The notes beneath the pieces were generated by a model. That model had not been told where the DNA came from. It did no database searches and was given only the letters and a program-made list of their open reading frames with translations. Shown here one piece after another: positions 23,684 through 47,092 of a stretch of DNA of 64,000 nucleotides; the first letter of the stretch is position 1, and each line of letters starts with the position of its first letter. The position numbers and the translations under genes are program-made. Origin of the DNA: Candidatus Latescibacterota bacterium (GTDB lineage Bacteria > Latescibacterota > UBA2968 > GCA-2709665); contig OZ244937.1 of NCBI GenBank assembly GCA_965222075.1, forward strand, positions 3,424,001-3,488,000, read 5' to 3'.

Positions 23684-23804
23684 CTATAACGTTTCGCCGA
23701 TTCGCGAACCCCGAGCTCGGCCGCTGAGCCTGTCGAAGCGTGTCGAAGGGTTGCCCTTAGGGCCAAGGCGCGAATGCGCCGCAGCGCAAAACGTGATGTT
23801 AACT
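23684..23804 (-). other. attC site 2 (with nested hairpin insertion)
   Basis: CTATAAC...GTTAACT. Confidence 0.85.
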
Positions 23805-23849
23805 GCTGGCGACCCTTTTTTAGGAAATCCTTCAGTATGCATAGGATCG

Positions 23850-24281
23850 TCAGCTTTCCATTAGGGCTTGTTTGACCCGGTCTGCATATGAATCCAATTC
23901 CTCATCAGGGATACGATCTAGCCACCGTGGATAAACTCTCAATAAACCATCGTCTACTTTTCTAGGATGGATATGAAAATGCACGTGGGGGACTTCCTGG
24001 TGAGCACCTGGCCCATTGCTCTGCCATATGCTTAATCCGTCTAGCTCGAAGGCTTTTCTGACGGTTCGAGAAAGTAAGATCATAGCTTTCATAATCTCAG
24101 ATCCTGTTTCCTCTGACAGGGCATAGATGTCTGGAAAGTGCTCTTTGGGAATGACCAGAATATGCCCAGGGTTTGCTTGCCTTGGATCTATCAGCGCGAT
24201 GACAGAATCCGACTCGTATACCACCCTCGCACTCTTAGTTCCCTCCACGATTTCACAGAAGACACATCTTGATTCATCCAT
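23850..24281 (-). CDS. HIT family protein (cassette)
   Basis: CVFC, GHILVIPK, HVHFHI. Confidence 0.92.
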   Translation of the reverse strand: MDESRCVFCEIVEGTKSARVVYESDSVIALIDPRQANPGHILVIPKEHFPDIYALSEETGSEIMKAMILLSRTVRKAFELDGLSIWQSNGPGAHQEVPHVHFHIHPRKVDDGLLRVYPRWLDRIPDEELDSYADRVKQALMES

Positions 24282-24377
24282 ACATCCTTCACCTTGCTTT
24301 GTGCAAGAGATATAATGACGTACGAAAAGGCTCTCCGCGGTAATGGGTGTGTGCTATTCTTTGGTTTTTTCGCTTGC

Positions 24378-24471
24378 AGTTAACGTTCTGGCCACTTGCG
24401 AACCCGCGCAGCGGGTTGCCGAATGGCCGGAGGGAGCGAACGCGCCGGAGCCGCAGCCCGTCGTGTTATGT
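24378..24471 (-). other. attC site 3
   Basis: AGTTAAC...GTTATGT. Confidence 0.85.
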
Positions 24472-24487
24472 GTAGTTGCAGTCCCGG

Positions 24488-25333
24488 TTATCGCCGGCCT
24501 TGCCATGCATGGCAAGGCCGGAAATGGGCTGATACCTCAAACTTCAATCTGGCTTTCTTCCTGCGAAATGCTAAAGCAGTTTCGTAGTGCTTGGTGATCG
24601 ATCCTCCGTAGTTCTTGTTTATCAGGTCAGCGATACCATCAAATAGGTGCGTGCGATTGAATTCGGGCAGCGCGATGTGGTCAGAATAGGTGCCAATGAG
24701 TTTGATGTACTGTTCCGCAGAATAGTTCGCTGTCCACGCGTACACTCGGTGGATAGGATCGGCAAAAGCGGTAGTTCCGGGTTCTGGGGACTCTGATGTC
24801 GTCGGAGTACTGGGATCCCGAGGGGAATCTGAAACTACATAATGCTTGCTATAAACTTCCTGGACTTCCGCAAAGAAACCTTCGTGTTTTCTTACGTGTT
24901 GGTTGGAGAAGATGGCCAATGATCCCCTGGCCTTCAGGGTGTCACGGGCTTTAATGAATCTGACTCTTGGACTCACCCAGTGGAATGCAGTCGCGGAGAT
25001 CACAAGGTCAAACTTGCTAGCCGAGTCCCAATCTTCGAAAGGACACAGGACGAAGCAAACGTTCTTGTAGTTGTTGAGTCGCGCCCTCGCAACCTCGATC
25101 AAATCTTGGCCAATATCCAAACAGGTCATTTCGCAACCGATGGTGGCAAATAATCTCGAAGCCTGTCCGGTTCCACACCCGACTTCCAGGATTTTTCCGC
25201 TTCTATCCATTCCGGAGAGGTCCAAAACATCCCTGACAAGCTCATCAGGGTATCCGGGCCTCACTTCGTCATAGAGCGAGGCAACGGTATTGAAAGTGGT
25301 TTTGAGATCAGGGCGGGGCATTAGAATTCCCAT
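24488..25333 (-). CDS. Class I SAM-dependent methyltransferase (cassette)
   Basis: LEVGCGTG, SATAFHW. Confidence 0.9.
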   Translation of the reverse strand: MGILMPRPDLKTTFNTVASLYDEVRPGYPDELVRDVLDLSGMDRSGKILEVGCGTGQASRLFATIGCEMTCLDIGQDLIEVARARLNNYKNVCFVLCPFEDWDSASKFDLVISATAFHWVSPRVRFIKARDTLKARGSLAIFSNQHVRKHEGFFAEVQEVYSKHYVVSDSPRDPSTPTTSESPEPGTTAFADPIHRVYAWTANYSAEQYIKLIGTYSDHIALPEFNRTHLFDGIADLINKNYGGSITKHYETALAFRRKKARLKFEVSAHFRPCHAWQGRR

Positions 25334-25383
25334 GATTTGGGTTTAGGCGGCGCAGGGAGGCGTCGCTCTGGGACTACAATTGC

Positions 25384-25468
25384 ACATAACGTCCCGGCTG
25401 TTCCTGAACCGTGTAGCAGTTGGGTCAGAAGGAGCCAAGCGACTGGAGCCAGGAACAGCCTGTTATGT
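25384..25468 (-). other. attC site 4
   Basis: ACATAAC...GTTATGT; GGCTGTTCCTG/CAGGAACAGCC arms. Confidence 0.85.
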
Positions 25469-25534
25469 GTCTGTAGCAGTTTGCGATCGGAAAAGCGATA
25501 GAGAGGCGACCATCACCCTTCTGTTTTGTGTCTT

Positions 25535-26070
25535 TCAGGGTTTTACAGCCTGAGCAAAGAACAGACTCTGAGAATAATCGTCATACACCTTCCACTTAAA
25601 GATTTCAAAACCTGCTGTCTCGACTTCCTGAACCAGACTCTCTGGCAAGCCCCAGAAACGCGTTGCGATTCCATTCTCTATTTTGCATCGGGTCACAGGA
25701 TCAAACGGATAATCTGCATTCTTTGGCTCACCACATTTTGTCATGACGATGAATAACCCCTGAGACTTCAGTACACGATGCACATTCTTCAAGAATGCAA
25801 TGCGATCTTCGCCGATGATACAATGTAGGCAAAGGGCGTCTATGATCACGTCGAAAAACCCATCCTCATACGGCAAATCGAGGACGTTCCCAACTCGGAA
25901 ATCCGCTCTCAAATTCTGTTCCTCACCCTTTTCCTCTGCCCAAGCAATCGCCGTCGGAGAGATATCGATTCCATAGGCTTGAAAGCCCTTCTCCGAAAGG
26001 AGCAAAGAAAGATCGCCGGCACCACATCCTAACTCAAGCAAAGTTCCCGATTCCAACTCCAACTCTCGCA
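25535..26070 (-). pseudogene. SAM methyltransferase cassette gene, 5'-truncated and fused to an IS4 remnant
   Basis: LELGCGAG, GIDIS, FDVIID; native N-terminus missing. Confidence 0.75.
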
Positions 26071-26108
26071 ATACATTGGTCACTTTGCCGAAGTTCCAGG
26101 TCGTCCGA

Positions 26109-26139
26109 CCTGCCTGTGCGTTGCACGCACGCAGACAGG
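26109..26139 (+). repeat. CCTG..CAGG mini-palindrome (31 bp)
   Basis: cctgcctgtgcgttgcacgcacgcagacagg at GA^T. Confidence 0.9.
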
Positions 26140-26178
26140 TCAAGCGAGATGGTGAAGTCACACTTGACTGGCAACAGA

Positions 26179-26209
26179 CCTGCCTGTGCGTTGCACGCAC
26201 GCAGACAGG
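26179..26209 (+). repeat. CCTG..CAGG mini-palindrome (31 bp)
   Basis: Identical to 26109-26139, at GA^T. Confidence 0.9.
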
Positions 26210-26375
26210 TGCAAGATCAAGTCGACCACCAGATCATAGGGCAGATGAAATCCACTGAAGAAACGTTGAATCCTGCGATAGTTGGACTTCTGCTTGGCTT
26301 TGCCGTTGAGAACGTTGGCCAGTTTGCTGAAGTTCACTGTTGTCAGTTTGATGAGGGATAGGATGAACGCGCTGA

Positions 26376-26457
26376 CCTGCCTGTGCGTTACCGCACGCTT
26401 GCCTGCGCGCAGCGCGTCTGCCTGTGCCGAAGGCAGACAGGCAAGCAGGCAGACAGG
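26376..26457 (+). repeat. Triple-nested CCTG..CAGG mini-palindromes (30+27+25 bp)
   Basis: Outer 26376-26397 + 26450-26457; middle 26398-26416 + 26442-26449; inner 26417-26441. Confidence 0.85.
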
Positions 26458-26901
26458 TGAATTTCACTCGGGCTTTATGCCAGAGAAAATGCCATTGCAT
26501 TACCTCTTGCAATTGGTTAACTTGGGGAGACATGGACCTGTGCCTTTCTTATGAATGAGTGGTTGGATTGTGGCCAACCCAAACCTAACTCATTTCATCT
26601 AAAAACGCAGGTCTTTTCTATTGAGTGTGTAGGAAATCGCGGGCGCTTTGAAAGGGCCTTCAGACAGCATAAATGCCTGCTCGACATTTCCCAAATCCCA
26701 TTTTGGCCCCTGAGGCTGCTCATTGAGACCAAACATCGAGGATACTTTAAATGTTTGGCCTGAAAAGCAAGAAAATTCACGATAACAAATTTCGTAAGTG
26801 ATTTTTTTTCAGACTGTTATTTCGCCTGTAAAATCCTACACACTCTTTTCTATTTTGTCGTGTACCTTGATCCGGTCCATAAATCCCAAAACTGCCATGG
26901 C

Positions 26902-27006
26902 ACATAACGTTCTGGCCACTTGCGAACCCGCCGAGCACAGCGAAGGTGGGTTGCCGCTAGGCCGAAGGGAGCGAATGCGACCGAAGCGCAAGTGGACGTG
27001 TTACAC
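26902..27006 (-). other. attC site 5
   Basis: ACATAAC...GTTACAC; CCACTTGCG/CGCAAGTGG arms. Confidence 0.88.
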
Positions 27007-27067
27007 GCCGGCGCCTTGATAGCGAAGCTCATTTGGCGCAGGAGTTGCGCACCCGGCATCTCGCCAA

Positions 27068-27772
27068 TCAATCCCCAGCCAGCAGGAATCCGATCCGCCA
27101 TCTACCTTTGAGATACTCGAACTGGGCACGGTAGCCGATGGGGCTTCTACAATCTGAGGCCAAAACGTAACCAGAAACTCCATCCAAGGTCGTGACCCTC
27201 TTCCATTCTCTTCCGGCCTTGTCTCGCGGATTCGGCTCGTTCACATCTTTGACGATTTCGTAGCTCAGAGTATCAATTGCCGCTGAACTTAGGCTCATCT
27301 CGGGCCGCAGTGGAGCAGCCTCTGACTTGATAGCCGAATAGAAATAGGCGTCGTAAGCGTCTGGCCATCGAGAAAAGAAGTATGGAATTATGAAAACTGT
27401 GCAGCTGTCATTCTCACACGTCGCGCCAAGTGCCAGCAATTCCTCTAGGGTGCTCCACAACCTAGACTTCTTTGGCTTCGATCTCAGGTTCCAGTAATCG
27501 AGAAACCCTTCCCTTCCGAATCGTCCTCCGTAACTAACGTGAATATCTGGTTTCAGATGATCTAGGACAAAATCGAGGTCTTTCCGCTCAACGGCTGAGG
27601 CCAACTCTGAGCGAAAGTTACCGAAGGAGTCGCTGAGATAAGTTTCGTCAATCGGTAGCAGTCGAGTAACACCCGTACCTGCCAGGAGACTCAAGGGTAG
27701 GGCTATAACCAGGAACGTAGCTCTGAGTATCATGTCAAATCGTTGGTGCGAAGGTAGTTGGTTTGTCTTCAT
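27068..27772 (-). CDS. Secreted hypothetical protein with SH3-like C-terminus (cassette)
   Basis: Signal-like hydrophobic stretch; WKRVTTLDGVSGYV...SPIGYRA. Confidence 0.7.
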   Translation of the reverse strand: MKTNQLPSHQRFDMILRATFLVIALPLSLLAGTGVTRLLPIDETYLSDSFGNFRSELASAVERKDLDFVLDHLKPDIHVSYGGRFGREGFLDYWNLRSKPKKSRLWSTLEELLALGATCENDSCTVFIIPYFFSRWPDAYDAYFYSAIKSEAAPLRPEMSLSSAAIDTLSYEIVKDVNEPNPRDKAGREWKRVTTLDGVSGYVLASDCRSPIGYRAQFEYLKGRWRIGFLLAGD

Positions 27773-27807
27773 ACACCTGTCGGGTGCCTCCGACTTCCGA
27801 CGCTGGC

Positions 27808-27889
27808 GTGTAACGTTTCAGTGCCCCCGAACCGCGAAGCGGTTGGGCGAAGGGCCGAATGGCCCGAAGCCGGGGGCACAATGTTAGGC
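27808..27889 (-). other. attC site 6
   Basis: GTGTAAC...GTTAGGC; GTGCCCCCG/CGGGGGCAC arms. Confidence 0.9.
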
Positions 27890-27899
27890 GAAGTCTCCG

Positions 27900-28328
27900 T
27901 TACTGAAAGCGGACCACGCATTTGTATCGTTGAACACCCGGATATTTCTCGCCGAGAGGTTCTATTTCAAATCCACATGATCTGTAGAAGCCAACGGCAT
28001 CGTCGTCAGTTTCTGCCTCTAACTGGCCAAACCTCAGATCGTCACGAACGAACGCAATCAGTCTCCGTCCTATGCCTACACCCCTCCATTCAGGATGAAC
28101 GGCGATGTGGGTGATGATACACCGGCTTCGATCGGATGAATCCAAACGTACGATTCCAACGGGCGCGTCCTCGCATCTGGCAACCCATAACGTCGTGAGG
28201 GAGTTCGAAGTGCAAGACTGCATGAGCTCTCCAATAGCAGCCTCTGTGGGTGCACCAACGGACTCGGCAAGAATACTCGCCACATCCTTTGCGTCCGACT
28301 CATCAGCATGAAAACGATGGATCTGCAT
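27900..28328 (-). CDS. GNAT acetyltransferase (cassette)
   Basis: IAVHPEWRGVGIG, AETDDDAVGFYRSCGF. Confidence 0.9.
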   Translation of the reverse strand: MQIHRFHADESDAKDVASILAESVGAPTEAAIGELMQSCTSNSLTTLWVARCEDAPVGIVRLDSSDRSRCIITHIAVHPEWRGVGIGRRLIAFVRDDLRFGQLEAETDDDAVGFYRSCGFEIEPLGEKYPGVQRYKCVVRFQ

Positions 28329-28340
28329 CTTGGAAATGTC

Positions 28341-28430
28341 GCCTAACGTCTCATGATTTGCGAACTCGCGAAGCGGGTTGCCGAAGGCCAAGGCGCGATC
28401 AGCGCCGCAGCGCAAATCGCTGTGTTACAG
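28341..28430 (-). other. attC site 7
   Basis: GCCTAAC...GTTACAG. Confidence 0.9.
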
Positions 28431-28458
28431 GAAGAGAGAAAGATACAGCCTGTGTATG

Positions 28459-28686
28459 TCAACTGGTGCTCTTGGTAGAGTCCTCCGGTCCCTCTGCCGC
28501 GTCCATAAACGACCGAAGAGCATTGTTTACGGCCTCGTCCGTGGGAAATGCCTTCGCAACGTCTGGGTGGAGTAGAACCAAATTTGTCCCTGAGCAAAAG
28601 GATTCCAAATACTTACCCCGGACACCAGGACCGAGATCTCCACGGCGATATTCTGGACGCAGTTCGTCTGGATCAGCCTTCTTCAT
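28459..28686 (-). CDS. BrnA-like antitoxin
   Basis: ELRPEY...VRGKY...PDVAKAFP..EAVNNALR; overlaps the toxin stop. Confidence 0.8.
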   Translation of the reverse strand: MKKADPDELRPEYRRGDLGPGVRGKYLESFCSGTNLVLLHPDVAKAFPTDEAVNNALRSFMDAAEGPEDSTKSTS

Positions 28687-28945
28687 AGATCCTCCTTTCC
28701 TGACGCGTCATTAAACGTGCACTGATTATTCTCGTCTTTCCGGCTCGTTGGGTATGCAAGATGACTACCAATCGATTCAATCTCGACAGGCCAAAAGTAA
28801 GATATCGTTCTTCATCCACCGAGTGATCGGGATCGGGGAAGGTTATTGCCAGCGGGTCCCCAAAAACAGTGGCCCCTTCGTGAAAACTGAGGTCGTGTTT
28901 TCGCTCGTTCGCTTTGGCTTTTTCTGAATCCCATTCAAATTCCAT
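28673..28945 (-). CDS. brnT: BrnT family toxin
   Basis: MEFEWDSEKAKANERKH..F...RIISAR. Confidence 0.92.
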   Translation of the reverse strand: MEFEWDSEKAKANERKHDLSFHEGATVFGDPLAITFPDPDHSVDEERYLTFGLSRLNRLVVILHTQRAGKTRIISARLMTRQERRIYEEG

Positions 28946-29026
28946 CAGTTGACGGCTTCCTCATCAATAACAGTAGCCCCAGTGTTTTATTATCCCACAG
29001 CAAAAGCGATTCTCTGTTCTCTTTTC

Positions 29027-29101
29027 CTGTAACGTCTGCCGGTTTGCAAACCTGCGAAGCGGGTTGCCAGAAGGGCCAAGGCGCGAAACGTGCTGTTATG
29101 G
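29027..29101 (-). other. attC site 8 (shortened)
   Basis: CTGTAAC...GTTATGG; one arm partly deleted. Confidence 0.75.
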
Positions 29102-29156
29102 GCCGTGGCACGCAATAGCCTCATCGAAAGTTCATGAGGTGGTGGGTAACACGTCT

Positions 29157-29366
29157 CTAATCATGTAAGATCTCACCCGCCAATGGAGGGCGTACTGCTG
29201 AATCTTCCAGAGTCAGAACCGCAATGGTGGTGCCCTGAGTATCCACGAACTCTACCTCCGACGCCTCGTCGTCCGCATATCTATGTACCACTGTGCCCAC
29301 ATCTCCGGCCACCAGACCGTGCTCTACAATCGACTCCTTGAGAACCACCAGATCCAATTCAGCCAT
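29157..29366 (-). CDS. DUF4926 domain protein (putative antitoxin/immunity)
   Basis: ELDLVVL...GLVAGDVGTVV...EVEFVD..G.T. Confidence 0.8.
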   Translation of the reverse strand: MAELDLVVLKESIVEHGLVAGDVGTVVHRYADDEASEVEFVDTQGTTIAVLTLEDSAVRPPLAGEILHD

Positions 29367-29381
29367 TTCAATCCTCCTTGA

Positions 29382-29714
29382 TCAAGCTGGATAGGCTGTC
29401 ACCAGACGAGGCCTATCTGAACCAGGTTCAACAATCCAGACCGTCCGAATCCGAACACTCGAACCCGATGGGGTTTTCACACGACCATCCAAAATATACT
29501 TGGTGCCATGACGTGTCTGTATAACTTCGGAGACCTGCTCATTGCGCGCAATGGATGCTAAATCAGCTTTGAGGACAGAGGGGTCCTCCTGCCCATACCC
29601 AACACCACGGAAGAATCTCGCCTTTGCTCGACCTACGGCATGTATATCGGAAAGCAGATATTGCTCGACTTTCTCAGTAGGTATCGCCACATTTATTCCG
29701 TTAGGCAACTTCAT
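29382..29714 (-). CDS. DUF6883-like protein (putative toxin)
   Basis: KVEQYLLS..H..GRAKARFF...TVWI...PRLVTAYP. Confidence 0.75.
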   Translation of the reverse strand: MKLPNGINVAIPTEKVEQYLLSDIHAVGRAKARFFRGVGYGQEDPSVLKADLASIARNEQVSEVIQTRHGTKYILDGRVKTPSGSSVRIRTVWIVEPGSDRPRLVTAYPA

Positions 29715-29757
29715 AGAATCAGTATTTGTGAATCAGATCCAATTTTCACGCCAGGGC

Positions 29758-29850
29758 CCATAACATTTCGCCGGTTTGCGAACCTGCGAAGCAGGTTGCC
29801 CGAAGGGCCAAGCTGCCGCAGGCGGCGCAGCGCAAACCGCTGTGTTCTGG
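29758..29850 (-). other. attC site 9
   Basis: CCATAAC...GTTCTGG. Confidence 0.85.
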
Positions 29851-30030
29851 GAAATTGGAATCCACTTGAAAATATGTCTAAATTCCTGCGCAATAAGTGT
29901 CAAGGCGTTGAACCGTGGCTATCGCGATATGCTGCCCAACTACGGTTTCATCGTCATTCCTGCCCCTCAGGCTATGCATAAGGGCGTCTGCGCAATCACT
30001 TGTTTGGTGACAAAACCGGAAAAACAAACA

Positions 30031-30984: not shown

Positions 30985-31029
30985 GAGATCTCATTCTTTC
31001 GAGAATACTGATGGCCGTTCTCCAATTTC

Positions 31030-31171
31030 CCATAACGTCTGACGGTTTGCGAACCCCGAGCTCGGTCGCTGAGCCTGAACCCTGAGCCTGTCGAAGGGTG
31101 TCGAAGCGTGTCGAGGGGTTGCCGAAGGCCAAGGCGCGAATGCGCCGTAGCGCAACACCGTGCTGTTAGAC
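31030..31171 (-). other. attC site 10 (with doubly nested hairpin insertions)
   Basis: CCATAAC...GTTAGAC. Confidence 0.85.
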
Positions 31172-31524
31172 GATCGCGGCGACCAACCTTATTCGCAGTT
31201 CTGCCTCTCGAAATTTCGAACAACCATTCCCACACACTCCGTGAAACCTTGCTTAACGTAGAAATCAGACACATCTCGGTCGCACACAAGGTCAATCATG
31301 TAAAAATGCCCAAACTCCTTGAGCATTCGCCTGACAAGCTCAGCTCCAATGCCCATACCATGGTAGTCGGGCAGTACACCGAGGTGAGGAATATATGCAC
31401 AGGACACACCATCCGAGATGGCAGAAATCCAACCGACGACCTCTCCTTCTGGCGAAATAGCCAGAACAAAGAAATCGCTGCCCTGCAAAATTCTAAGATG
31501 CGCCTCTGGGGAGGGAGGATTAGG

Positions 31525-38291: not shown

Positions 38292-38321
38292 TTAGCCCCG
38301 TGTTGAGTTTGTTGTGCGGGA

Positions 38322-39113: not shown

Positions 39114-39184
39114 CTGTTATGATTCGGCAAGAGGTGGACATTCTTAGTTTGTGCGCAACTGTGGTGCTGTCTTGCCCCAGTTTT

Positions 39185-40344: not shown

Positions 40345-40371
40345 CCTGCCCGCGCGCAGCGCGCAGGCGGG
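40345..40371 (+). repeat. Mini-palindrome variant (27 bp, in frame)
   Basis: cctgcccgcgcgcagcgcgcaggcggg at GA^T. Confidence 0.8.
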
Positions 40372-40534
40372 TGCGTGAGCCCAAGCGGGGTCGAAAGCCG
40401 AAGGGAAAGAAATATCCCCGATATGATACACCTTGGAGAGAACCCAAGTTGTTTACCATCTACATGTTGGACGAAAAAGGTCGCGTCGAAAAATCGTGGA
40501 CGCCTATCCACGATGCGACTCGGGGCAATGCCGA

Positions 40535-40561
40535 CCTGCCTGTGCGGTGCACGCAGACAGG
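40535..40561 (+). repeat. CCTG..CAGG mini-palindrome (27 bp, in frame)
   Basis: cctgcctgtgcggtgcacgcagacagg at GA^T. Confidence 0.9.
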
Positions 40562-40853
40562 TTTGATGTTTGAGATGCTGGAAGCTACCCTTTTGGAACT
40601 GCCCCTGCAACAGGCCGATCGGGTCGTGTTTATCGCCGATGGGGCAGAATGGATCTGGCCGAGGGTAGAGCGTCTGATCTGGAGGTTGGGGGTGCCTCCA
40701 AGCAAGGCGATCCAGATCCTCGACTATTACCATAATAGTGAAACCCTCTTTGAACTGGTGCAACTCCAACCGAAGCTTAAAGAAAAGGCACAACGTGCCC
40801 TGTATGAGACGTGGAAGACCTGGATGTGGAATGGGGAGCTTTTAAAACTCCGA

Positions 40854-40889
40854 CCTGCCTGTGCGTGCTGTCTCACGCACGCAGACAGG
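40854..40889 (+). repeat. CCTG..CAGG mini-palindrome (36 bp, in frame)
   Basis: cctgcctgtgcgtgctgtctcacgcacgcagacagg at GA^A. Confidence 0.9.
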
Positions 40890-40969
40890 AAAGAAGTGCT
40901 CCAGCAGCTTCGCGGGAAAAAACGAAAACAGGCCATCACATCCCTGAACCATTTCGACCGTCATGCGCA

Positions 40970-40994
40970 CCTGCCTGTGCCGATGGCAGACAGG
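40970..40994 (+). repeat. CCTG..CAGG mini-palindrome (25 bp, frameshifting)
   Basis: cctgcctgtgccgatggcagacagg at CA^T. Confidence 0.9.
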
Positions 40995-41035
40995 TCGAAT
41001 GCGCTATCCTACCTTCAAAGAACAGGGCCTTCCCA

Positions 41036-41062
41036 CCTGTCTGCGTGCCACGCACAGGCAGG
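41036..41062 (-). repeat. CCTG..CAGG mini-palindrome (27 bp, opposite orientation)
   Basis: cctgtctgcgtgccacgcacaggcagg; splits the LPIGSG motif. Confidence 0.9.
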
Positions 41063-41300
41063 TCGGAAGTGGACACGTCGAAAGCGCCATCCGTCGTGTC
41101 ATCAATCTTCGGATCAAAGCACCAGGCACGTTCTGGAAAAAAGACATGGGCGAATACTTCCTGTTTCTGCGCTCACAGTTGATCTGTGGAAGATGGCCTA
41201 TCTTCTTCCAGAATGTCACAGGACGATACCGAACGGGTGAGTTTGCCCAACATCTCTTTCCCTCTTCTCCGAAAATGGGTTTGCTCAAGACAGGGACAGA

Positions 41301-41325
41301 CCTGCCTGTGCCGCCGGCAGACAGG
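41301..41325 (+). repeat. CCTG..CAGG mini-palindrome (25 bp)
   Basis: cctgcctgtgccgccggcagacagg at GA^T. Confidence 0.9.
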
Positions 41326-41935
41326 TGATCACTAACGCAATTAACCGCTTATTCAACAACTTAACACGACTTTCTATATGTCATACTTTGGGACTGCACC
41401 CAGTCCGAGCTGCCTAACATAAATTCAAAATATTTCCCAAGACCGGACTTTTGGATGCTCCGAGAAGGACCATCTGGAAGAAAGAAGTTCGACACGACAG
41501 CCAATCGGCACTTATCTATCCAGAAGTCGAGCATTTGCACAACGCCGGGTGTAAGTCTAAGGGTCTTGGGAAATTCCTGTTCGAAGTGCTCAATCATTTC
41601 ACAAACCAAACCTTCGATTTCACCTCTTCTCTCAGGGGCCTTCTCCTCAAGAACTGCACGGAAACGTTCCGGCAACGTAACTTCGCGCCAGGTCCCGTCG
41701 GACCACTGGTTCTCCCGCCACCTATCATAATCTTGCCTGAAATCAGTTGAAGAAGAATAGAACCCCGCCTCTACTGGCATGTGAGTGAGAAACCCGATCC
41801 CGGATTCATCTCCTGTGTCATCGAAATTGTCAATCAGTGTATTGAAGCAGTCGAAGAATATCCAATCAAACGAGCTCATTTTCCGGTATTTTGCACCCTT
41901 TGTCTTTTCGTTGAGCTAGCCAAAACCAACATTGC

Positions 41936-42014
41936 ACTTAACGTTCTCGGCACCCCCGAAGCCGCGAAGCGGTTTTGTGCGGAGCGAAGCGAAGCCGGGG
42001 GTGCCGTGTTAACC
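41936..42014 (-). other. attC site 16 (same body as attC12)
   Basis: ACTTAAC...GTTAACC. Confidence 0.92.
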
Positions 42015-42078
42015 GATGTGGAGGTTTGTCGGATCACCAAAAAGTTCAAGAGGCAACCATCACCCCTTGCTTTTTTGT

Positions 42079-42384
42079 TCATTCATTTCCTGCCAGTGCT
42101 TCTGACCAACGCCTGGCCATTGTCCTCAATTCTTCCTCATGGGCTGGCCAATCGTGAAGCGTGGCAGGATCAAAATCAGCACCATTCGGCCAGACGAGTG
42201 TATGCACCTCAGGATCAATACGCACCTCATTAAAAAGCAATATATCCATCAGAGGTCCGAACAACTCGCCCTCAAGAACTGGACGAAAATCGATAACTCG
42301 AGTCGTTTCATCGTTGAATCTGACTTTGATCTGATAGGTCCCAACAATCTCAAATGAAACGACTCGATAGATTGGATGACTCAT
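42079..42384 (-). CDS. DUF2442 protein (putative antitoxin), copy B
   Basis: Identical translation to 35261-35566. Confidence 0.85.
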   Translation of the reverse strand: MSHPIYRVVSFEIVGTYQIKVRFNDETTRVIDFRPVLEGELFGPLMDILLFNEVRIDPEVHTLVWPNGADFDPATLHDWPAHEEELRTMARRWSEALAGNE

Positions 42385-42395
42385 TCTATCCTCCC

Positions 42396-42665
42396 TTAAT
42401 GAAGCGGATCGATCGGCAAGGGAGGATGCCCAGATTGGAGCCGACCCCAATCTTCAAGGAGCTCCTCCTGATGCAACTCCGCCCAGGCTTCGACGAATCG
42501 TTGCTGACGGCGTGGCAAAGTCCCTGCGATCAATTCAATGGTATCCACAGCGTAAACGGCCACTTCATCTTGATAATAGGCGTGAAAATGAGGCCGATGG
42601 TGCTGTGTTCTCGGTTCGGCAAACATGCGAATGATGATTCCGAAAAACCGAGAAATTTCAGGCAT
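42396..42665 (-). CDS. DUF4160 protein (putative toxin), copy B
   Basis: Identical translation to 35578-35847. Confidence 0.88.
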   Translation of the reverse strand: MPEISRFFGIIIRMFAEPRTQHHRPHFHAYYQDEVAVYAVDTIELIAGTLPRRQQRFVEAWAELHQEELLEDWGRLQSGHPPLPIDPLH

Positions 42666-42815
42666 TTGTTTTCCTTGCGATATGGATTTTATCGATGAAA
42701 TCCTGCGGGAAATAAACCGGATTATGCATGGGTAAGCAAAATCCAAATTGGGATGAATGGGAGTCTGTTTTTGCCCCTCAGAGCTTGACCAATTAGCCCT
42801 TAAAACCTCCATGTC

Positions 42816-42905
42816 GGTTAACGTTCTACCGATTGCCGAACCTGCGAAGCAGGTTGCCGAAGGCCAAGCGCCGAATGGCGCGCAGCGGCAAACGAGTTGT
42901 TAGAT
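42816..42905 (-). other. attC site 17
   Basis: GGTTAAC...GTTAGAT. Confidence 0.88.
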
Positions 42906-42960
42906 GAAGTGGGATCTAATTCGTATTCCAATATCAAACCACCTGGATTAAGGCTACAGC

Positions 42961-43476
42961 TCAGCCGCGGTGCTTGTCACCGTCGGCTGCAGTGCCTTGT
43001 TGGCCGTTTATTCCTTTGTCCAGGTCCAGTCTGTACCGGCATGTCGGCCCGAGTTCTCCTGGCTCCCGTTCGGTTTCGATGGTGTCGACGTATGTCGCCC
43101 CGATCAACTCACAGGTCCTTCTGGATGCGTCGTTATCGGGACGGCAAGTGATCAACAGCGAGTTCAGTCCATGGCTAAGAGCAAGGGGGAACAGGAGGCG
43201 GCAACTGCGGGCAGCACATCTGTTCCCACGGTATTCCTCCTGAACATCGTAGCTCAGGTTGCCTCCATACTGTTCGAGCCTTTCCGTGCACCGGGTCCTG
43301 AGGCAGATGCTGCCGATCGTCGCCCCGCTGCTAATAAGCCGCATCTCGAAACGGTACTCGGGCACCCGTCCCTTCTCAGAATCGGACGGAAGCGTCTCGG
43401 TGAGGACAAGCTCAAGATCTCCGTCGACCAAGTGTCCTGGATCGTGGAATTCACATTCGGGATTCTTCCGGGTCAT
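42961..43476 (-). CDS. GNAT acetyltransferase, RimJ/RimL-like (cassette)
   Basis: GGNLSYDVQEEYRG, ITCRPDNDASRRTCE. Confidence 0.85.
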   Translation of the reverse strand: MTRKNPECEFHDPGHLVDGDLELVLTETLPSDSEKGRVPEYRFEMRLISSGATIGSICLRTRCTERLEQYGGNLSYDVQEEYRGNRCAARSCRLLFPLALSHGLNSLLITCRPDNDASRRTCELIGATYVDTIETEREPGELGPTCRYRLDLDKGINGQQGTAADGDKHRG

Positions 43477-43579
43477 CCGGTATTCTCTGCGGCCAACTAG
43501 TGATTGAGCGGTGAATATGCAGAATATCTCCCGCTATCTGGAGATATTCTGCAATGATCTGATTTTACGTTTCCATTTC

Positions 43580-43667
43580 ATCTAACGTTCTCGGCACCCA
43601 CGAACCTGCCGGAGGTAGGTTGGGCGGAAGCCCGAACGGGCTGGAGCCGTGGGTGCTCGTGTTACGC
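43580..43667 (-). other. attC site 18
   Basis: ATCTAAC...GTTACGC. Confidence 0.88.
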
Positions 43668-43717
43668 GCCGTGTCTGTCCTGAGTACACACCAAAACAGT
43701 TCGGCCAAGTTCAAACT

Positions 43718-44359
43718 TCACGAGTACATCGACAGGTCATCCCAGTCCGAGGACAGCGTCGGTCGAGGTAGCTTCGGATCGGGGTGCCAGCCTTCCCACC
43801 CGGCGGAGAAGGGACCTACGTTCCGCTCAATCTCCTCGACCGCACGCTGCCCCTCTGCACGAATCGCAATGGCATCCTCGAGACTCACTCTCCCGTCCTG
43901 CACGCATATGTCGAGTTCGTCCTTGTCTTTCCATCTCCACTCTCGGTTTGGTTCAACGAGGATGTCAAGCTGATGGTCCCTCAAATCGAAGCCCAGCGGT
44001 GTGCGTGTTAGTCTGCTCTGCATGTTCACATACCACCCAGAGAACTCCCGATCTCTTGACCATATGACGCAAGTTGCCCGATGCTGATCGGGTCTGATGA
44101 CGATCAAGAGCTCGCCCCACTGCCAAGTCGAATCCTGAAGCGTCCAGTTGTCCTCGGTCCACCGCCGTGGCGTTCCTGGCGTATGGTTTAGCAGCACCGG
44201 ATTCTTTGTAGGTGTATCCATTGGGAGCCAGAGGACGATCTGGGTCTCAGAATCTTCGACTACGGTGACGGGCTTCACATCGATAATTTGGCCATGCTCA
44301 TCAGTTTCTCGATAGAGTATGCAATCACCACATCGGAACCTGTCAGCTCCTTCTCCCAT
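43718..44359 (-). CDS. DUF402 (FomD-like) protein (cassette)
   Basis: FSGWYVN, DHQLDILV, WKDKDE. Confidence 0.85.
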   Translation of the reverse strand: MGEGADRFRCGDCILYRETDEHGQIIDVKPVTVVEDSETQIVLWLPMDTPTKNPVLLNHTPGTPRRWTEDNWTLQDSTWQWGELLIVIRPDQHRATCVIWSRDREFSGWYVNMQSRLTRTPLGFDLRDHQLDILVEPNREWRWKDKDELDICVQDGRVSLEDAIAIRAEGQRAVEEIERNVGPFSAGWEGWHPDPKLPRPTLSSDWDDLSMYS

Positions 44360-44416
44360 CTAGATTCTTCTCCTCCGAAAAATCAACCAGCCTGGCAAGA
44401 ATTCCTAAGGCATGGC

Positions 44417-44497
44417 GCGTAACGTCCCCGCCGTGCCCGAACCGCGAAGCGGTTGCGCGAAGGGCGTAGCCCGAAGCCGGGCACGGACGTGTTAGAC
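44417..44497 (-). other. attC site 19 (same body as attC11)
   Basis: GCGTAAC...GTTAGAC. Confidence 0.92.
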
Positions 44498-44554
44498 GGC
44501 GTTGGCCAAATCGTCACCACGGAGGAGATTTTTGGGCACACGGTTGCAGAGCGT

Positions 44555-45916
44555 TCAAAATGCCTCTTTCCCAACGATCTCGTAAACCCTCGCCGGATGG
44601 CGGTGATCTTTGACCTTATTGAATAGCGCTTTGGCCTTTTCCAGCATCCCGGCCCGTCCATAGAAGTAGATGAGGTTGCCAGCCTCGTTTGGTCTCCCAG
44701 TGAGGTCCCATACCTTCTCCTGCACGACCACGGCCCTGCCCCAATCACCCCTGTGGAATGCCAAACAGGACCCCATTTGCCGAAGTGCAACGTAGGCCCA
44801 TACGGTCTTTTGGCCTAGTCCGTACATGGTCTCATACACCGGATAGGCCTCATCCCACCGGTTCTGTCGAGCCAGTGACAAAGCGAGGTAGTTCAGGCAC
44901 TGCTGGTCTTCAGGGGCCAAAGTGACGGCATGGCGGGCAACTTCCTCCATCTCTTCAAAGTCGCGTTTCCACAAAAACATCTGCGCCTTGGCAGTGAGAG
45001 CAACTATGTCATCAGGGTCCTTTGCAAGCCGCAGACTGCATAGCTCCAGGCATTTCTCGATTGCCGTGGCCTGCTTTTGCTGGTCGCCCGCCCATAAAAC
45101 GGTAAGCTCGAACGCAACATCGATGGAGTCCGGCGCCGCTTTCGCGGCTCGTTGAAGGGTTGCCGCCTCTTCCTCGGAGGGGCCCTTGATCGGGTCATAT
45201 GTCCGTCCGAGCTCCATCAATGCCTCAGGATGGTCCGGGGACACCTCCAGTGCTTCCCTGAAGCGTGCGCGTGCCTCATCCATCCTCATGTACAATCGAT
45301 CCCTCTTGCCCTGTTCCAAGAGTCGGGCAATGGTCCGTGCTGCGAATCCTTCGGGCAGATCATGCTTGCTCCTGTCATCTCTTGCCATGCGGGTGACCTC
45401 CTCCTTAAGCTGCCTGCGCGCCCTGTATAGCCGCTGTTTCACACCTGCAGGGGTCGTTCGTACCAGAAGAGCCACATCCTGAATCGAATACCCTTCCAGA
45501 TAATGCAGTGTAAACGCCTGGACGCTTTTCGCAGGAAGCCTTGAAAACAGTTCCTGGAACGCTGCATTCCGGATAACAGGCTGCTCTGGATGTTCTCTGA
45601 GATCCGTCACCTCGACAACTGACTTCGCCACGGCTTGGTGGCGGCGATTGTCCCTCAACCTGTTGAGGCAGATGTTGCGAAGTATCTGCCCCACCCAGGA
45701 TGAGAATCGAGAGTGCTCCTTCAGAGCCTCAAGCTGTTTGAAGGCCTTCAAGAATGCGTCCTGAAGAGCATCCTGTGCCTCTTCCTTAGCGTGCACATAA
45801 CTTAGCGCCTGCAGGTAGAGGCGATCCTGATGGCGTAACACCAGGGCTTCGAATGCAGAAAGGCTGCCAGAGAGTGCGGCGGCGACTAGCTGGGCATCTG
45901 TGGATAGGCTTTCCAT
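44555..45916 (-). CDS. ECF-type sigma-70 factor fused to TPR repeats (cassette, copy B)
   Basis: Identical translation to 33664-35025. Confidence 0.88.
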   Translation of the reverse strand: MESLSTDAQLVAAALSGSLSAFEALVLRHQDRLYLQALSYVHAKEEAQDALQDAFLKAFKQLEALKEHSRFSSWVGQILRNICLNRLRDNRRHQAVAKSVVEVTDLREHPEQPVIRNAAFQELFSRLPAKSVQAFTLHYLEGYSIQDVALLVRTTPAGVKQRLYRARRQLKEEVTRMARDDRSKHDLPEGFAARTIARLLEQGKRDRLYMRMDEARARFREALEVSPDHPEALMELGRTYDPIKGPSEEEAATLQRAAKAAPDSIDVAFELTVLWAGDQQKQATAIEKCLELCSLRLAKDPDDIVALTAKAQMFLWKRDFEEMEEVARHAVTLAPEDQQCLNYLALSLARQNRWDEAYPVYETMYGLGQKTVWAYVALRQMGSCLAFHRGDWGRAVVVQEKVWDLTGRPNEAGNLIYFYGRAGMLEKAKALFNKVKDHRHPARVYEIVGKEAF

Positions 45917-46008
45917 CGCTCTACCATTACGACACCTCAGGAGAGAGGAAGGTAACGCCGAGGAAGGATTCTTGCAGTAATCTCCGCCCGTTCGTGAGGG
46001 CAAATGCC

Positions 46009-46103
46009 GTCTAACGTCTCACGGTTTGCGAACCCCGAGCTTGTCGAGGGGTTGCCGGAGGCCAAGGCGCGACAGCGCCGCAGCGAAAACCGCTGTGTTA
46101 TGT
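46009..46103 (-). other. attC site 20
   Basis: GTCTAAC...GTTATGT. Confidence 0.88.
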
Positions 46104-46126
46104 GCTGTGCAATTCAAACGCAGTCA

Positions 46127-46996
46127 CTACCATGCCTCCGAGCGAGCAGGTTGCAGAGCAAATTGCGTGATTGTGTCGTGAGCCCGCCCCGTGCAGTCAT
46201 GATGCACATACACCGTGTCGTTGATGACGATTCGGCGATTGTCTGGATACTTGGCGACCAAGTCCCGGTCGCGGAAAAACCTCCCATCGTATCGCCGGAA
46301 GAAGACAGTCCTTCCACCTGCTTCAACGAAGGCTTCCACCAACTCGCCACCGTTTGGTGCGGAGAGTCCTGGAATGGCATCGAATACACGTAGACAGTGG
46401 AACCTGTGATCGCCGATAGTCACGTCGTAGGTTCCAGCACCAATCCCTTCCCCGTCTGTTGTTTTGTAGGATCCATCGCTCTGCCGCTCGTATTGGCCTC
46501 CGTCGATCATTCGACGGTTCATAACACCGCCCCAGTTGGCCTCGAAGTGCCTGTCGCCCTGCACCTCGACCAAGCGTTTGCCGTCTACGCTCCTCGTGAC
46601 ACCAACCCAACGCGCACCGACGTCATCCAACAGTGCGTACATATAGCCAGGATCGAATTCCAACGGGATGTCTTCACGCTTCACATGTTGTTCCACTCGA
46701 AGTTCGATACAATCGATGTCTCGGAGTGTAGCCGATCCTACGGACACGATTTTAACGACCTCTGTCAGCTCAAGTGTATCCGCTTCATACACGGCCCACT
46801 TGCAGTGTTCACCCAACCTGGGAACGGCAAACCACCACTGCAGTTCCGGGCAATTGACCTCTTGCAATCGCGCACTGCTTTCCTGGATCGTGACCTGTGG
46901 TCGGGTCAATGGAAAACCATCAACCATCTCGCTGCCGATTTCAGTGTTCATAAGGACTGTAGGAGAGCGGCGCGGTCTTTGTCTTTTGCATGGCAC
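46127..46996 (-). CDS. Hypothetical protein (cassette)
   Basis: ORF fills the cassette between attC20 and attC21; start may be ATG 46951 or later. Confidence 0.75.
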   Translation of the reverse strand: MPCKRQRPRRSPTVLMNTEIGSEMVDGFPLTRPQVTIQESSARLQEVNCPELQWWFAVPRLGEHCKWAVYEADTLELTEVVKIVSVGSATLRDIDCIELRVEQHVKREDIPLEFDPGYMYALLDDVGARWVGVTRSVDGKRLVEVQGDRHFEANWGGVMNRRMIDGGQYERQSDGSYKTTDGEGIGAGTYDVTIGDHRFHCLRVFDAIPGLSAPNGGELVEAFVEAGGRTVFFRRYDGRFFRDRDLVAKYPDNRRIVINDTVYVHHDCTGRAHDTITQFALQPARSEAW

Positions 46997-47092
46997 ATAA
47001 CGATTTGACGGTTTGCGAACCCCGAGCTTGCCGAGGGGTTGCCCGAAGGGCCAAGGCGCGTAGCGGCGCAGCGCAACACCGTGCTGTTAGAG
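46995..47092 (-). other. attC site 21
   Basis: ACATAAC...GTTAGAG. Confidence 0.88.

What the first reader, a model, noticed from the sequence alone, without database searches (positions are those of the whole stretch)
23709..47038. A second hairpin family nests inside one specific attC loop
The slot between GAA and TTG is normally CCGCGAAGCGG or CCTGCGAAGCAGG. It is CCCCGAGCTTG(T/C)CGAGGGG in attC20 and attC21. In attC2 that unit carries an insert (cggccgctgagcctgtcgaagcg), and in attC10 two nested inserts (adding tgaaccctgagcctgtcgaaggg), each placed just before TGTCGA. attC5, 14 and 15 hold other modules, e.g. cctgtcctccggagctgcgtagcagcgaaggagg. Inference: REP-like elements colonise the attC variable terminal structure, hitch-hike on cassettes and may alter recombination rates.
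Basis: partly seen in the sequence, partly recalled or inferred. Interest (0 to 1): 0.7.

Follow-up and report, generated by a model that had tools for sequence, protein, structure and literature searches.

The report
Nested hairpin repeats inside attC sites
A tiny DNA hairpin repeat found in many bacterial phyla sits at the tip of one branch of some integron recombination sites in this genome, and stacks inside itself like Russian dolls, about 23 bases per layer.

Summary
The window holds 22 attC sites (22747-48307) with no integrase nearby. In attC20 and attC21 the first small hairpin of the variable terminal structure is a 19-nt unit: a 4-bp stem plus the 11-nt cap GAGCYTGYCGA. attC2 holds two nested units and attC10 three. 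Each layer adds 23 nt, and the stems pair in nest order.

The unit is not specific to attC. It has 22 paired copies in this genome against 5 in a control, 32-111 copies per genome in a sister genus, and a two-layer form in records titled with many phyla. Its stem covaries (0 of 500 shuffles reach the observed score). It also caps a ~95-nt three-way-junction element, which occurs empty, single, double and complex. In one record it fills a terminal loop of an M-box riboswitch.

No Y1/RAYT transposase accompanies it, so it resembles REP elements in form only. All 10 unit-bearing attCs here belong to one attC subfamily, so capture by attC probably happened once and spread with attC copying. Layers then grew by loop insertion, arm slippage or both; the mechanism is not settled. 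Any effect on recombination is untested. The modules in attC5, 14 and 15 are not a dispersed family.

The parts
22747..48307 (-). Cassette array of 22 attC sites with no integron integrase nearby (a CALIN). Cassette genes lie on the - strand, so the + strand is the attC bottom (folding) strand.
   Evidence: attC list. Of the 18 ORFs inside the array with Pfam hits, 17 are on the - strand; I chose the longest ORF per gap, which was mostly on the - strand. TIGR02249 has no match over its cut-off in the genome. The GAA loop on the + strand fits the bottom-strand rule in PMC5027507.
46009..46103 (+). attC20. Its slot at 46033-46051 is one unit: CCCC-GAGCTTGTCGA-GGGG.
46995..47092 (+). attC21. Its slot at 47020-47038 is one unit: CCCC-GAGCTTGCCGA-GGGG.
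23684..23804 (+). attC2. Its slot at 23709-23750 is a two-layer nest: outer stem CCCC/AGGG, inner stem CGCT/AGCG, linker CGGC.
31030..31171 (+). attC10. Its slot at 31054-31118 is a three-layer nest: stems CCCC/GGGG, CGCT/AGCG and CCCT/AGGG, with linkers CGGT and TGAA.
   Evidence: A near-identical 65-nt nest lies in another attC at genome position 973.3 kb.
26927..26950 (+). Slot of attC5: CCCGCC-GAGCACAGCGAA-GGTGGG. This is a GA-flanked mini-hairpin and a local variant, not a dispersed family.
37064..37088 (+). Slot of attC14: a GCGAAGC mini-hairpin nested in a CCTGCC/GGCAGG stem.
39209..39258 (+). Slot of attC15: a 50-nt composite hairpin, CCTGCC..CCTCC-GGAGCTGCGTAGCAGCGAA-GGAGG..GGCAGG.

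Best explanation
The units belong to a widely dispersed family of very small hairpin repeats. Each has a 4-bp stem of free sequence and a conserved 11-nt cap, GAGCYTGTCGA. I infer that its G-A and A-G ends form tandem sheared pairs.

The family tends to sit at the apex of existing hairpins, including its own loop, so it builds nested rod-like hairpins.

In this lineage one attC subfamily acquired one unit in place of the usual C-GNA-G mini-hairpin of the first branch of its variable terminal structure. That attC type was then copied onto many cassettes and into several genomes.

In this genome, which has no intact integron integrase, further layers were added inside the loop. Each layer is a 4-nt linker plus a 19-nt unit, 23 nt in all, giving sites 2, 3 and more than 5 layers deep.

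Growth is most likely a mixture of two processes: insertion of whole units at the loop between GAGCY and TGTCGA, and later replication slippage of the two arms, which are tandem arrays of 12-13 nt and 10 nt.

The purine-rich version lies on the attC bottom strand. It should therefore lengthen and stiffen that branch of the folded bottom strand, and make extrusion from double-stranded DNA harder.

Shown: the anatomy, the dispersion, the covariation, and the presence/absence series. Inferred: the insertion step, the G-A pairing, and any effect on recombination.
For: 1. The unit occurs outside attC.
- GAGCYTGYCGARG is found 23 times in the genome against 7 for the backwards control.
- The relaxed core with 4 of 4 paired flanks is found 22 times against 5.

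2. It is a dispersed family.
- The 15-mer CTGAGCYTGTCGAAG occurs in 31 of 53 genomes of the order. Counts are 32-111 copies in 15 of 15 genomes of sister genus g2, 10 in G000, 26 in G024 and 15 in G038, with controls at most 1.
- G013 has 158 cores against 11 in the control.
- The 26-nt two-layer motif occurs in 96 stretches of public genomes titled with many phyla, including isolates of Bacteroidota.

3. The hairpin is real.
- In 53 cores (37 distinct) the 4-bp stem is 89.2% paired against 69.6% when shuffled.
- All 4 pairs change on both sides, in 26 cells; 0 of 500 shuffles reach the score; slid partners give 33-58%.
- In G013, 26 of the first 31 cores have a perfect stem of 6 sequence types, and the 5th pair is mismatched in 26 of 31.

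4. Nest steps are discrete and recur in unrelated hosts.
- The attC series runs attC20 to attC2 to attC10, adding 23 nt each time.
- The ~95-nt three-way-junction element has 20 copies: 1 empty (81 nt, apex GCC-GACA-GGC), 5 with one unit, 8 with two, and 6 complex.
- At one apparently orthologous locus, G016 has one unit and G012 has two.
- An M-box riboswitch carries the nest as 84 nt in a terminal loop where the model has 6.

5. The layers of attC10 have three different stems that pair in mirror order. The inner layers read GAGCC while the outer layer and all single-unit attCs read GAGCT. CGCT/AGCG and CCCT/AGGG are also stem types of the free family.

6. Single-unit attCs of the same subfamily occur in G003, G030, G043 and G044. 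Sites with two or more layers occur only in G000, plus one degenerate site in G020.

7. Strand and stability.
- G000 has no IntI over the cut-off.
- The + strand folds better in 19 of 22 attCs, by 1.96 kcal/mol on average.
- Passages of PMC5027507 say bottom strands fold 2.12 kcal/mol better on average, carry 5'-GAA-3' in the terminal structure, and recombine less from double-stranded DNA as that structure lengthens.
Against: - No enzyme and no target-site duplication were found. The only shared letters at an insert's edges are TG.
- Linkers differ by host (CGGY and TGAA in attCs; TTGT, CTTG, CGTG, CTCG and GCTG in the ~95-nt element), which fits local origin better than a master copy.
- Arms are unbalanced in 55 of 94 public copies by a crude count that is biased to two or more right units. 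One attC holds a 53-nt block repeated 3 times. Slippage alone therefore explains much of the growth.
- All 10 unit-bearing attCs are one subfamily, so attC may have been entered only once per layer.
- The empty copy of the ~95-nt element could be a deletion rather than an unfilled site.
- Standard nearest-neighbour DNA folding does not recover the strict nest of attC2 and attC10. It keeps the outer and inner stems of attC10 but not the middle one, and z-scores are only -1.7 to -2.7.
- The flanks of 94 public nests pair only slightly better than mismatched flanks (-5.42 against -4.93, sd 0.17). Most copies are therefore free-standing and not in host loops.
- Only 1 of 60 scanned public loci overlaps an Rfam family.
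Confidence: 0.6

Rival explanations
1. Purely local growth. The attC hairpin expanded by slipped-strand or template-switch errors during replication. Its likeness to hairpins elsewhere reflects convergence on an unusually stable purine-capped DNA fold, not a shared element.
For: - The arms are tandem arrays: 12-13 nt on the left and 10 nt on the right.
- A 53-nt block is repeated 3 times in the attC at 3410 kb.
- Arms are unbalanced in 55 of 94 public copies.
- Linkers are host-specific.
- The two largest nests (969.9 kb on the + strand and 3410 kb on the - strand) have the hairpin strand on the lagging-strand template, judging from GC skew with its minimum at 4.21 Mb and maximum at 1.34 Mb.
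- Other attC slots show graded elaborations of GNA-loop hairpins.
Against: - A tandem duplication of a whole hairpin gives side-by-side copies, not nested ones. A nest needs two matched events, one per arm.
- The three layers of attC10 have different stems in mirror order.
- An identical 13-nt conserved core with six stem types occurs 158 times in G013, and in many phyla. That is hard to reach by convergence.
- Inner layers read GAGCC while the outer layer reads GAGCT.
Confidence: 0.2
2. A selected functional module. The cap is a recognition site for a host or integron protein on folded single-stranded DNA, kept in this attC subfamily to tune folding, strand choice or excision rate.
For: - The 11-nt cap is nearly invariant while the stems covary.
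- Its orientation relative to the attC bottom strand is constant in 10 of 10 attCs.
- The single-unit attC is conserved across two families of the order, in one case 2 kb from a 315-aa IntI-like gene.
- The terminal structure is known to modulate recombination and strand selectivity (PMC5027507 passages).
Against: - The same cap occurs in hundreds of non-attC places and in phyla and contexts without integrons.
- The deep nests occur in the one genome without an intact integrase.
- No partner protein was identified.
Confidence: 0.12
3. An RNA-level element, for example a transcript-stabilising or processing hairpin, that happens to overlap attC sites.
For: Many copies are intergenic, between gene ends. 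Stem covariation is equally compatible with RNA.
Against: - In the array the purine-rich cap is on the strand opposite to the cassette genes.
- In the M-box case it is also antisense to the RNA.
- Copies occur on both strands about equally (81 against 77 in G013).
- There is no Rfam match: 0 hits on the 7 loci and the 4 loci, and no family covering the repeat itself.
Confidence: 0.05

Closest known systems
REP / REPIN elements with RAYT (TnpA-REP) transposases
   Same: Short imperfect palindromes, extragenic, tens to hundreds of copies per genome in some lineages. They are often in inverted pairs 50-80 nt apart. Sources: PMC2817692 and PMC8266576, abstracts seen in the listing.
   Different: No unit flanks any Y1_Tnp gene: 28 loci from 22 genomes were scanned, and 7 of 15 g2 genomes have no Y1 hit at all. 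The conserved part is the loop, not a 5' foot. The same core occurs across phyla rather than being lineage-specific. Self-nesting is not a feature I found described: 'nested' has 0 occurrences in the review PMC3184786.
attC variable terminal structure with the bottom-strand GAA loop
   Same: The ordinary slot here is C-GNA-G, mostly CCGCGAAGCGG. This matches the statement that the bottom-strand terminal structure of most mobile-integron attCs is 5'-GAA-3', and that sedentary integrons have longer, branched terminal structures (PMC5027507 passages).
   Different: Here one branch tip is replaced by a member of a genome-wide repeat family and grows in 23-nt layers, to about 270 nt in one site.
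Known invaders of attC: IS1111-attC insertion sequences and group IIC-attC introns
   Same: Mobile elements that are found specifically inside attC sites and travel with cassettes. Sources: PMC3001079 abstract and PMC11187229 abstract, seen in the listing.
   Different: Those are kilobase elements that encode their own enzymes and insert near the recombination core. The unit here is 19-23 nt, non-coding, and sits at the apex of a terminal-structure branch.
MITEs
   Same: Non-autonomous, structured and dispersed. In g2 the units are also parts of larger ~130-250-nt composite repeats.
   Different: No terminal inverted repeats or target-site duplication are defined for the 19-nt unit.
The d(GCGAAGC) mini-hairpin and tandem sheared G-A pairs (from my own recall, not from any call)
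   Same: The ordinary slot contains GCGAAGC. The unit has Y-GA-R on both sides of its cap, the context I recall as favouring tandem sheared G-A pairs.
   Different: I did not test this. The nearest-neighbour folds I ran do not credit such pairs.

Membership tests
integron attC site | Inverse-core and core boxes (..TAAC ... GTT..) at the two ends | tested here: met
   22 of 22 sites start with xTAAC[GA] and end with TGTT[ACT].
integron attC site | Imperfect hairpin of the two arms with a terminal structure between them | tested here: met
   DNA folds pair the arms in the sites shown. The + strand is more stable in 19 of 22 sites.
integron attC site | One site per cassette, downstream of a co-oriented ORF, in an array | tested here: met
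   17 of 18 Pfam-supported ORFs inside the array are on the - strand, between successive sites.
integron attC site | Extrahelical bases on the R''-L'' arm | tested here: inconclusive
   The L stems I read are perfectly paired. The asymmetry lies in the central spacer, for example 6 against 3 nt in attC6 (my reading).
complete integron | Adjacent intI gene | tested here: not met
   TIGR02249 scores at best 93 bits against a cut-off of 265. Only fragments are found, at genome positions 5301112-5301384 and 3408755-3408859. The array is therefore a cluster of attC sites lacking an integrase.
REP/REPIN-RAYT system | Short extragenic palindrome in high copy number | tested here: met
   32-111 copies per genome in g2, but only 10 in G000.
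REP/REPIN-RAYT system | A Y1 (RAYT) gene flanked by the repeats | tested here: not met
   G000 has one IS200-like gene and one broken gene, with no units nearby. Across 28 Y1 loci in 22 genomes no unit is found; there are two stray partial motif hits.
REP/REPIN-RAYT system | Conserved tetranucleotide at the 5' foot of the hairpin (a feature I recall, not from a call) | tested here: not met
   The columns outside the 4-bp stem are variable in alignment A3.
MITE | Terminal inverted repeats and a target-site duplication | tested here: not met
   No duplication is seen at insert edges beyond an ambiguous TG.
slipped-strand tandem repeat | Head-to-tail copies of one unit | tested here: inconclusive
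   Each arm is a tandem array, and a 53-nt block occurs 3 times. However, the layers of attC2 and attC10 differ and pair in mirror order.
IS200/IS605-type single-strand hairpin transposition | Element ends recognised and cut by a Y1 HUH transposase | not testable with these tools
   Only the absence of an associated Y1 gene could be shown.

The most novel reading that the evidence does not exclude
The 19-nt unit is a 'loop-homing' element. It is a minimal selfish hairpin, spread across bacterial phyla, that is inserted as a ~23-nt block into the apical loops of DNA hairpins exposed as single strands. Targets include attC terminal structures, the tips of other structured repeats, a riboswitch helix and its own loop, which is why it nests. 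It would be moved by an enzyme not yet linked to it, or by a replication reaction that needs no dedicated enzyme.
Probability: 0.3. Interest if true: 0.85.

Novelty: new variant of a known kind. Interest (0 to 1): 0.7.

Why it matters
**For integrons.**
- attC sites can carry passenger repeats in their terminal structure, and those passengers are copied when attCs are copied.
- Sites with 0, 1, 2, 3 and more than 5 layers on an otherwise similar scaffold form a natural allelic series. It can be used to test how terminal-structure length and strand-biased stability set folding and recombination rates.

**For repeat biology.**
- A 19-nt hairpin has a nearly invariant cap, free covarying stems, self-nesting, copies in many phyla and no associated transposase.
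- I found this described neither in Rfam nor in the papers I searched.
- It would bear on how structured DNA and RNA elements, such as recombination sites and riboswitches, acquire insertions at helix tips.

**For annotation.** Such nests inflate attC length and break short-read assemblies at these sites.

Tried and rejected
- **RAYT/IS200 link.** PF01797 was searched in G000 and in 22 family genomes, and the flanks were scanned. No association was found.
- **Rfam.**
  - The window gave only a tmRNA.
  - The four G000 copies of the ~95-nt element gave 0 hits.
  - Seven g2 copies gave 0 hits.
  - Of 60 public loci, only one M-box overlaps a nest; a tRNA lies beside another nest.
  - Three G000 regions gave one weak group II intron hit.
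- **Sequencing runs.** Four runs held only as contigs were laid on 23600-43599. The contigs stop or join chimerically at attCs, so nothing can be said about nest-length variation. No raw reads were available.
- **Orthologous cassettes.** I looked for the GNAT and HIT cassettes with a different slot state in relatives. In 14 of 14 and 3 of 3 g2 loci these genes are not cassettes at all, so no comparison was possible.
- **Type-2 module.** GAGCNNNGCGA as a second dispersed family: 17 paired copies against 14 in the control, so rejected.
- **A simple arm-pairing scan for attCs** was too insensitive. I replaced it with an nhmmer profile.
- **Flank complementarity of public nests.** The excess is weak.
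- **Viral contigs.** 1 match only.
- **Genes between two inverted ~95-nt elements in G013.** A BNR-repeat protein and an unknown protein, no transposase.
- **Earlier findings of this scan.** Nothing was found.
- **Literature.**
  - The motif strings gave 0 relevant hits. Searches returned only primers by chance, as did.
  - 'attC + variable terminal structure + nested' gave 0 papers.
  - Recalled peptide strings from spurious ORFs gave 0 relevant papers.
  - 'Nested' has 0 occurrences in PMC3184786.
  - My statement that this is not in print rests only on these searches of the held library.

Full report
**What is in the window**

From 22747 to 48307 the window holds 22 attC sites in a region of lower G+C, 0.48-0.57 against about 0.60-0.63 outside.

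The ORFs between them that hit Pfam include HAD, HIT, methyltransferases, GNAT, BrnT, APH and DUF families. Of the 18 Pfam-supported ORFs inside the array, 17 are on the - strand. The exception is a transposase-like ORF. I submitted the longest ORF per gap, which was usually on the - strand.

The + strand is therefore the attC bottom strand. This agrees with the GAA loops read on the + strand: passages of PMC5027507 say the bottom-strand terminal structure of most mobile-integron attCs is 5'-GAA-3'.

No integron integrase reaches the TIGR02249 cut-off anywhere in the 5.36-Mb genome. The best score is 93 bits against 265, and there are two fragments. The array is therefore a cluster of attC sites without an integrase.

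An nhmmer profile of the window's attCs finds 67 hits in the genome at E<10, of which 59 are at E<=0.01. They fall in about nine clusters.

**The observation**

Every site has the same plan on the + strand. It runs xTAACGT, left arm, (C)GAA, hairpin 1 (the 'slot'), TTGSS, a second small hairpin, right arm, GTGTTA.

The slot is usually a C-GNA-G mini-hairpin such as CCGCGAAGCGG, CCTGCGAAGCAGG or CCCGCGCAGCGGG.

| Site | Slot coordinates | Content |
|---|---|---|
| attC20 | 46033-46051 | CCCC-GAGCTTGTCGA-GGGG |
| attC21 | 47020-47038 | as attC20, with one T to C change |
| attC2 | 23709-23750 | a second unit with stem CGCT/AGCG and linker CGGC, between GAGCT and TGTCGA |
| attC10 | 31054-31118 | a third unit with stem CCCT/AGGG and linker TGAA, inside the second |

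Each step adds exactly 23 nt, and the three stems pair in mirror order.

The motif occurs 4 times in the window against 0.01 expected.

**The unit is not an attC feature**

- The relaxed core GAGCNTGNCGA with four paired flanking bases occurs 22 times against 5.
- Ten attCs carry it: four in the window, and others at 969.9, 973.3, 981.5, 3410.3-3410.6, 3527.4 and 5298.2 kb. All are of the GGTTTGCGAA...TTGCC.GAAGG.CCAAGG subfamily, and all have the same orientation.
- Outside attCs the unit caps a ~95-nt repeat at 486, 1350, 2837 and 3405 kb, and occurs singly at 1234 kb and twice at 494 kb.

**Dispersion in other genomes**

- In the sister genus g2 the 15-mer CTGAGCYTGTCGAAG has 32-111 copies in 15 of 15 genomes.
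- Elsewhere in the order it is patchy: 26 in G024, 15 in G038, and 0-2 in most others. Controls are at most 1.
- G013 has 158 cores against 11 in the control, often as inverted pairs 50-80 nt apart.
- A scan of one genome per species for the 26-nt two-layer motif found 96 stretches. The records are titled as Latescibacterota, Bacteroidota (including cultured isolates), Bacillota, Chloroflexota, Eremiobacterota, Binatia, Nitrospirota, Planctomycetota, Proteobacteria, Acidobacteriota and others.
- Some titles may be inconsistent for metagenome bins, but the flanks differ and the isolates are unambiguous.

**It is a hairpin**

In 53 cores taken without regard to their flanks (37 distinct; G000 plus the first places of G013), the four flanking pairs behave as follows.

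| Measure | Value |
|---|---|
| Paired, observed | 89.2% |
| Paired, partners shuffled | 69.6% |
| Paired, partners slid | 33-58% |
| Pairs with changes on both sides | 4 of 4 (26 cells) |
| Shuffles reaching the covariation score | 0 of 500 |

In G013, 26 of 31 cores have perfect stems of six types: CCCT/AGGG 15, TGCT/AGCA 4, CATT/AATG 3, CGCT/AGCG 2, CACT/AGTG 1 and TCCT/AGGA 1. The fifth pair is mismatched in 26 of 31.

The stem is therefore exactly 4 bp, and the 11-nt cap (13 nt with the T-A closing pair) is what is conserved.

Both ends of the cap read Y-GA-R. From recall, this is the context of tandem sheared G-A pairs. I did not test that.

**It sits at hairpin tips and nests**

Three unrelated hosts show the same behaviour.

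(a) *The attC slot*, as described above.

(b) *The ~95-nt element.* Its 20 distinct copies in my loci form a series:

| State | Copies | Length |
|---|---|---|
| Empty (L018:487-567, apex GCC-GACA-GGC) | 1 | 81 nt |
| One unit | 5 | 99-101 nt |
| Two units | 8 | 122-125 nt |
| Complex | 6 | 133-313 nt |

- The empty copy folds as a clean three-way junction with z = -6.2.
- At one apparently orthologous place next to a GNAT gene, G016 has one unit and G012 has two.

(c) *An M-box riboswitch.* In one public record an M-box riboswitch (119.8 bits) has 84 nt, containing the nest, in the terminal loop of a short helix where the model has 6 nt. The nest is antisense to the RNA.

Most public copies, however, are free-standing. 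Their flanks pair only slightly better than mismatched flanks (-5.42 against -4.93, sd 0.17). Only 1 of 60 scanned loci overlaps an Rfam family.

**How the layers arise**

A tandem duplication of a whole hairpin would place copies side by side. A nest needs either insertion of a block into the loop or two matched duplications, one per arm.

For insertion:
- The discrete 23-24-nt differences between copies in three hosts.
- The different stems in mirror order in attC10.
- Inner layers reading GAGCC while the outer layer, and every single-unit attC in five genomes, read GAGCT.
- The inner stems (CGCT/AGCG, CCCT/AGGG) are common types of the free family.

For slippage:
- Each arm is a tandem array: 12-13 nt on the left and 10 nt on the right.
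- Arms are unbalanced in 55 of 94 public copies. The count is crude, and the query forced at least two right units.
- The attC at 3410 kb contains a 53-nt block three times, and the one at 969.9 kb has about 8 left and 5 right half-units plus an inverted unit.
- Linkers differ by host.
- By GC skew (minimum at 4.21 Mb, maximum at 1.34 Mb), the two giant nests have the hairpin strand on the lagging-strand template. The window's array has it on the leading-strand template. With n = 2 this is only a hint.

I conclude that both processes probably act. The insertion step is inferred, not shown.

No mobilising enzyme was found.
- Y1/RAYT genes are absent from 7 of 15 g2 genomes.
- None of the 28 Y1 loci has a unit nearby.
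- The motif is almost absent from viral contigs, with 1 match.

**History in attCs**

- Single-unit attCs of the same subfamily occur in G003, G030, G043 (two) and G044. These span two families of the order.
- In G044 the site lies 2 kb from a 315-aa IntI-like ORF that scores 104 + 97.5 bits, below the cut-off.
- Sites with two or more layers occur only in G000, plus one degenerate site in G020 that shares the CGGC linker and the AGCG stem.
- The 65-nt nest of attC10 is nearly identical to that of the attC at 973.3 kb, although the rest of the two sites differs.
- The simplest reading is one capture of the unit by this attC type, one origin of each further layer, and spread by whatever process copies attCs onto new cassettes. 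In that sense the unit hitch-hikes.
- Deep nests appear in a genome without an intact integrase. This fits relaxed selection on attC function, but it is a single case.

**Likely consequence**

- With standard DNA parameters the + strand folds better than the - strand in 19 of 22 sites, by 1.96 kcal/mol on average. The published figure for bottom strands is 2.12 kcal/mol (PMC5027507 passages).
- The same paper states that recombination from double-stranded DNA falls as the terminal structure lengthens.
- Layers of 23 nt, up to about 270 nt at 3410 kb, should therefore hinder cruciform extrusion while leaving the R and L boxes untouched.
- This is inference. The folds do not reproduce the strict nest of attC2 and attC10, and no assay was possible.

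**The other modules**

- The slots of attC5, attC14 and attC15 are elaborations built from GNA triloops and GA flanks.
- The pattern GAGCNNNGCGA with paired flanks is not enriched in the genome, at 17 against 14.
- They are local variants, not a second dispersed family.

**Comparison with what is known, and verdict**

- The family resembles REP/REPIN elements in size, copy number and inverted pairs. It fails the defining RAYT association and lacks a conserved foot.
- It differs from the known attC invaders, IS1111-attC and group IIC-attC introns (abstracts seen in the listing), in size, coding capacity and position.
- I found no description of it in Rfam 15.
- I found none in the held paper library either (searches; passages of PMC3184786).
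- I rate it a new variant of a known kind, dispersed hairpin repeats, with an unusual self-nesting, tip-dwelling habit.
- It is of real interest to integron and repeat specialists. The mechanism remains open.

Noticed in passing
L018:487-567 (-), L012:1445-1545, L001:1433-1556 and 17 further copies: A conserved ~81-nt three-way-junction repeat (CATTACTCCCCCCTTGAGGGGGAGTCGCAGAAGCCGAGCCG..GGCGACGGCTGATGCGGTGGGGGG). It is shared by G000 and genus g2, is intergenic, and has no Rfam match. Its third helix tip is the other main host of the nested units.
   Followed up: partly
window 31192-31488 and 23853-24281; loci L108-L124: The GNAT and HIT cassette genes have 78-89% identical counterparts in 14 and 3 genomes of genus g2. 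There they are ordinary chromosomal genes with no attC downstream. This is a possible window on how cassettes are made.
   Followed up: partly
window 31781-33388 (-): A DDE_Tnp_1_4 insertion sequence interrupts the GNAT cassette next to attC10. The same IS has many copies in several relatives.
   Followed up: no
window 26107-26140, 26177-26210, 40343-40376, 40533-40566; L042: Another palindromic repeat (GACCTGCCTGTGCGTTGCACGCACGCAGACAGGT). A similar hairpin occupies the slot of the ~95-nt element in one G018 copy.
   Followed up: no
L226:118-361 (-): An M-box riboswitch in a public Candidatus Cybelea record carries an 84-nt nest of the hairpin repeat in a terminal loop.
   Followed up: partly
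L090:2412-2472 (genome about 493.9 kb): A weak match to group II intron domains V-VI (28.5 bits, E = 0.047) overlaps a unit with stem CGGT/ACCG. A second identical unit lies 84 nt downstream.
   Followed up: no
window 33520-33819 = 44411-44710; 35121-35420 = 41939-42238: Duplicated cassettes within the array, 99-100% identical over at least 300 nt.
   Followed up: no
window 48178-48307: attC22, the last site, has an atypical 130-nt form with an A+T-rich insert in its terminal structure.
   Followed up: no
window 1700-2064 (-): A tmRNA gene (205 bits).
   Followed up: no
genome 5301112-5301384 (-) and 3408755-3408859 (+): Fragments matching the integron integrase model lie beside two other attC clusters. 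They are probably remnants of intI.
   Followed up: no
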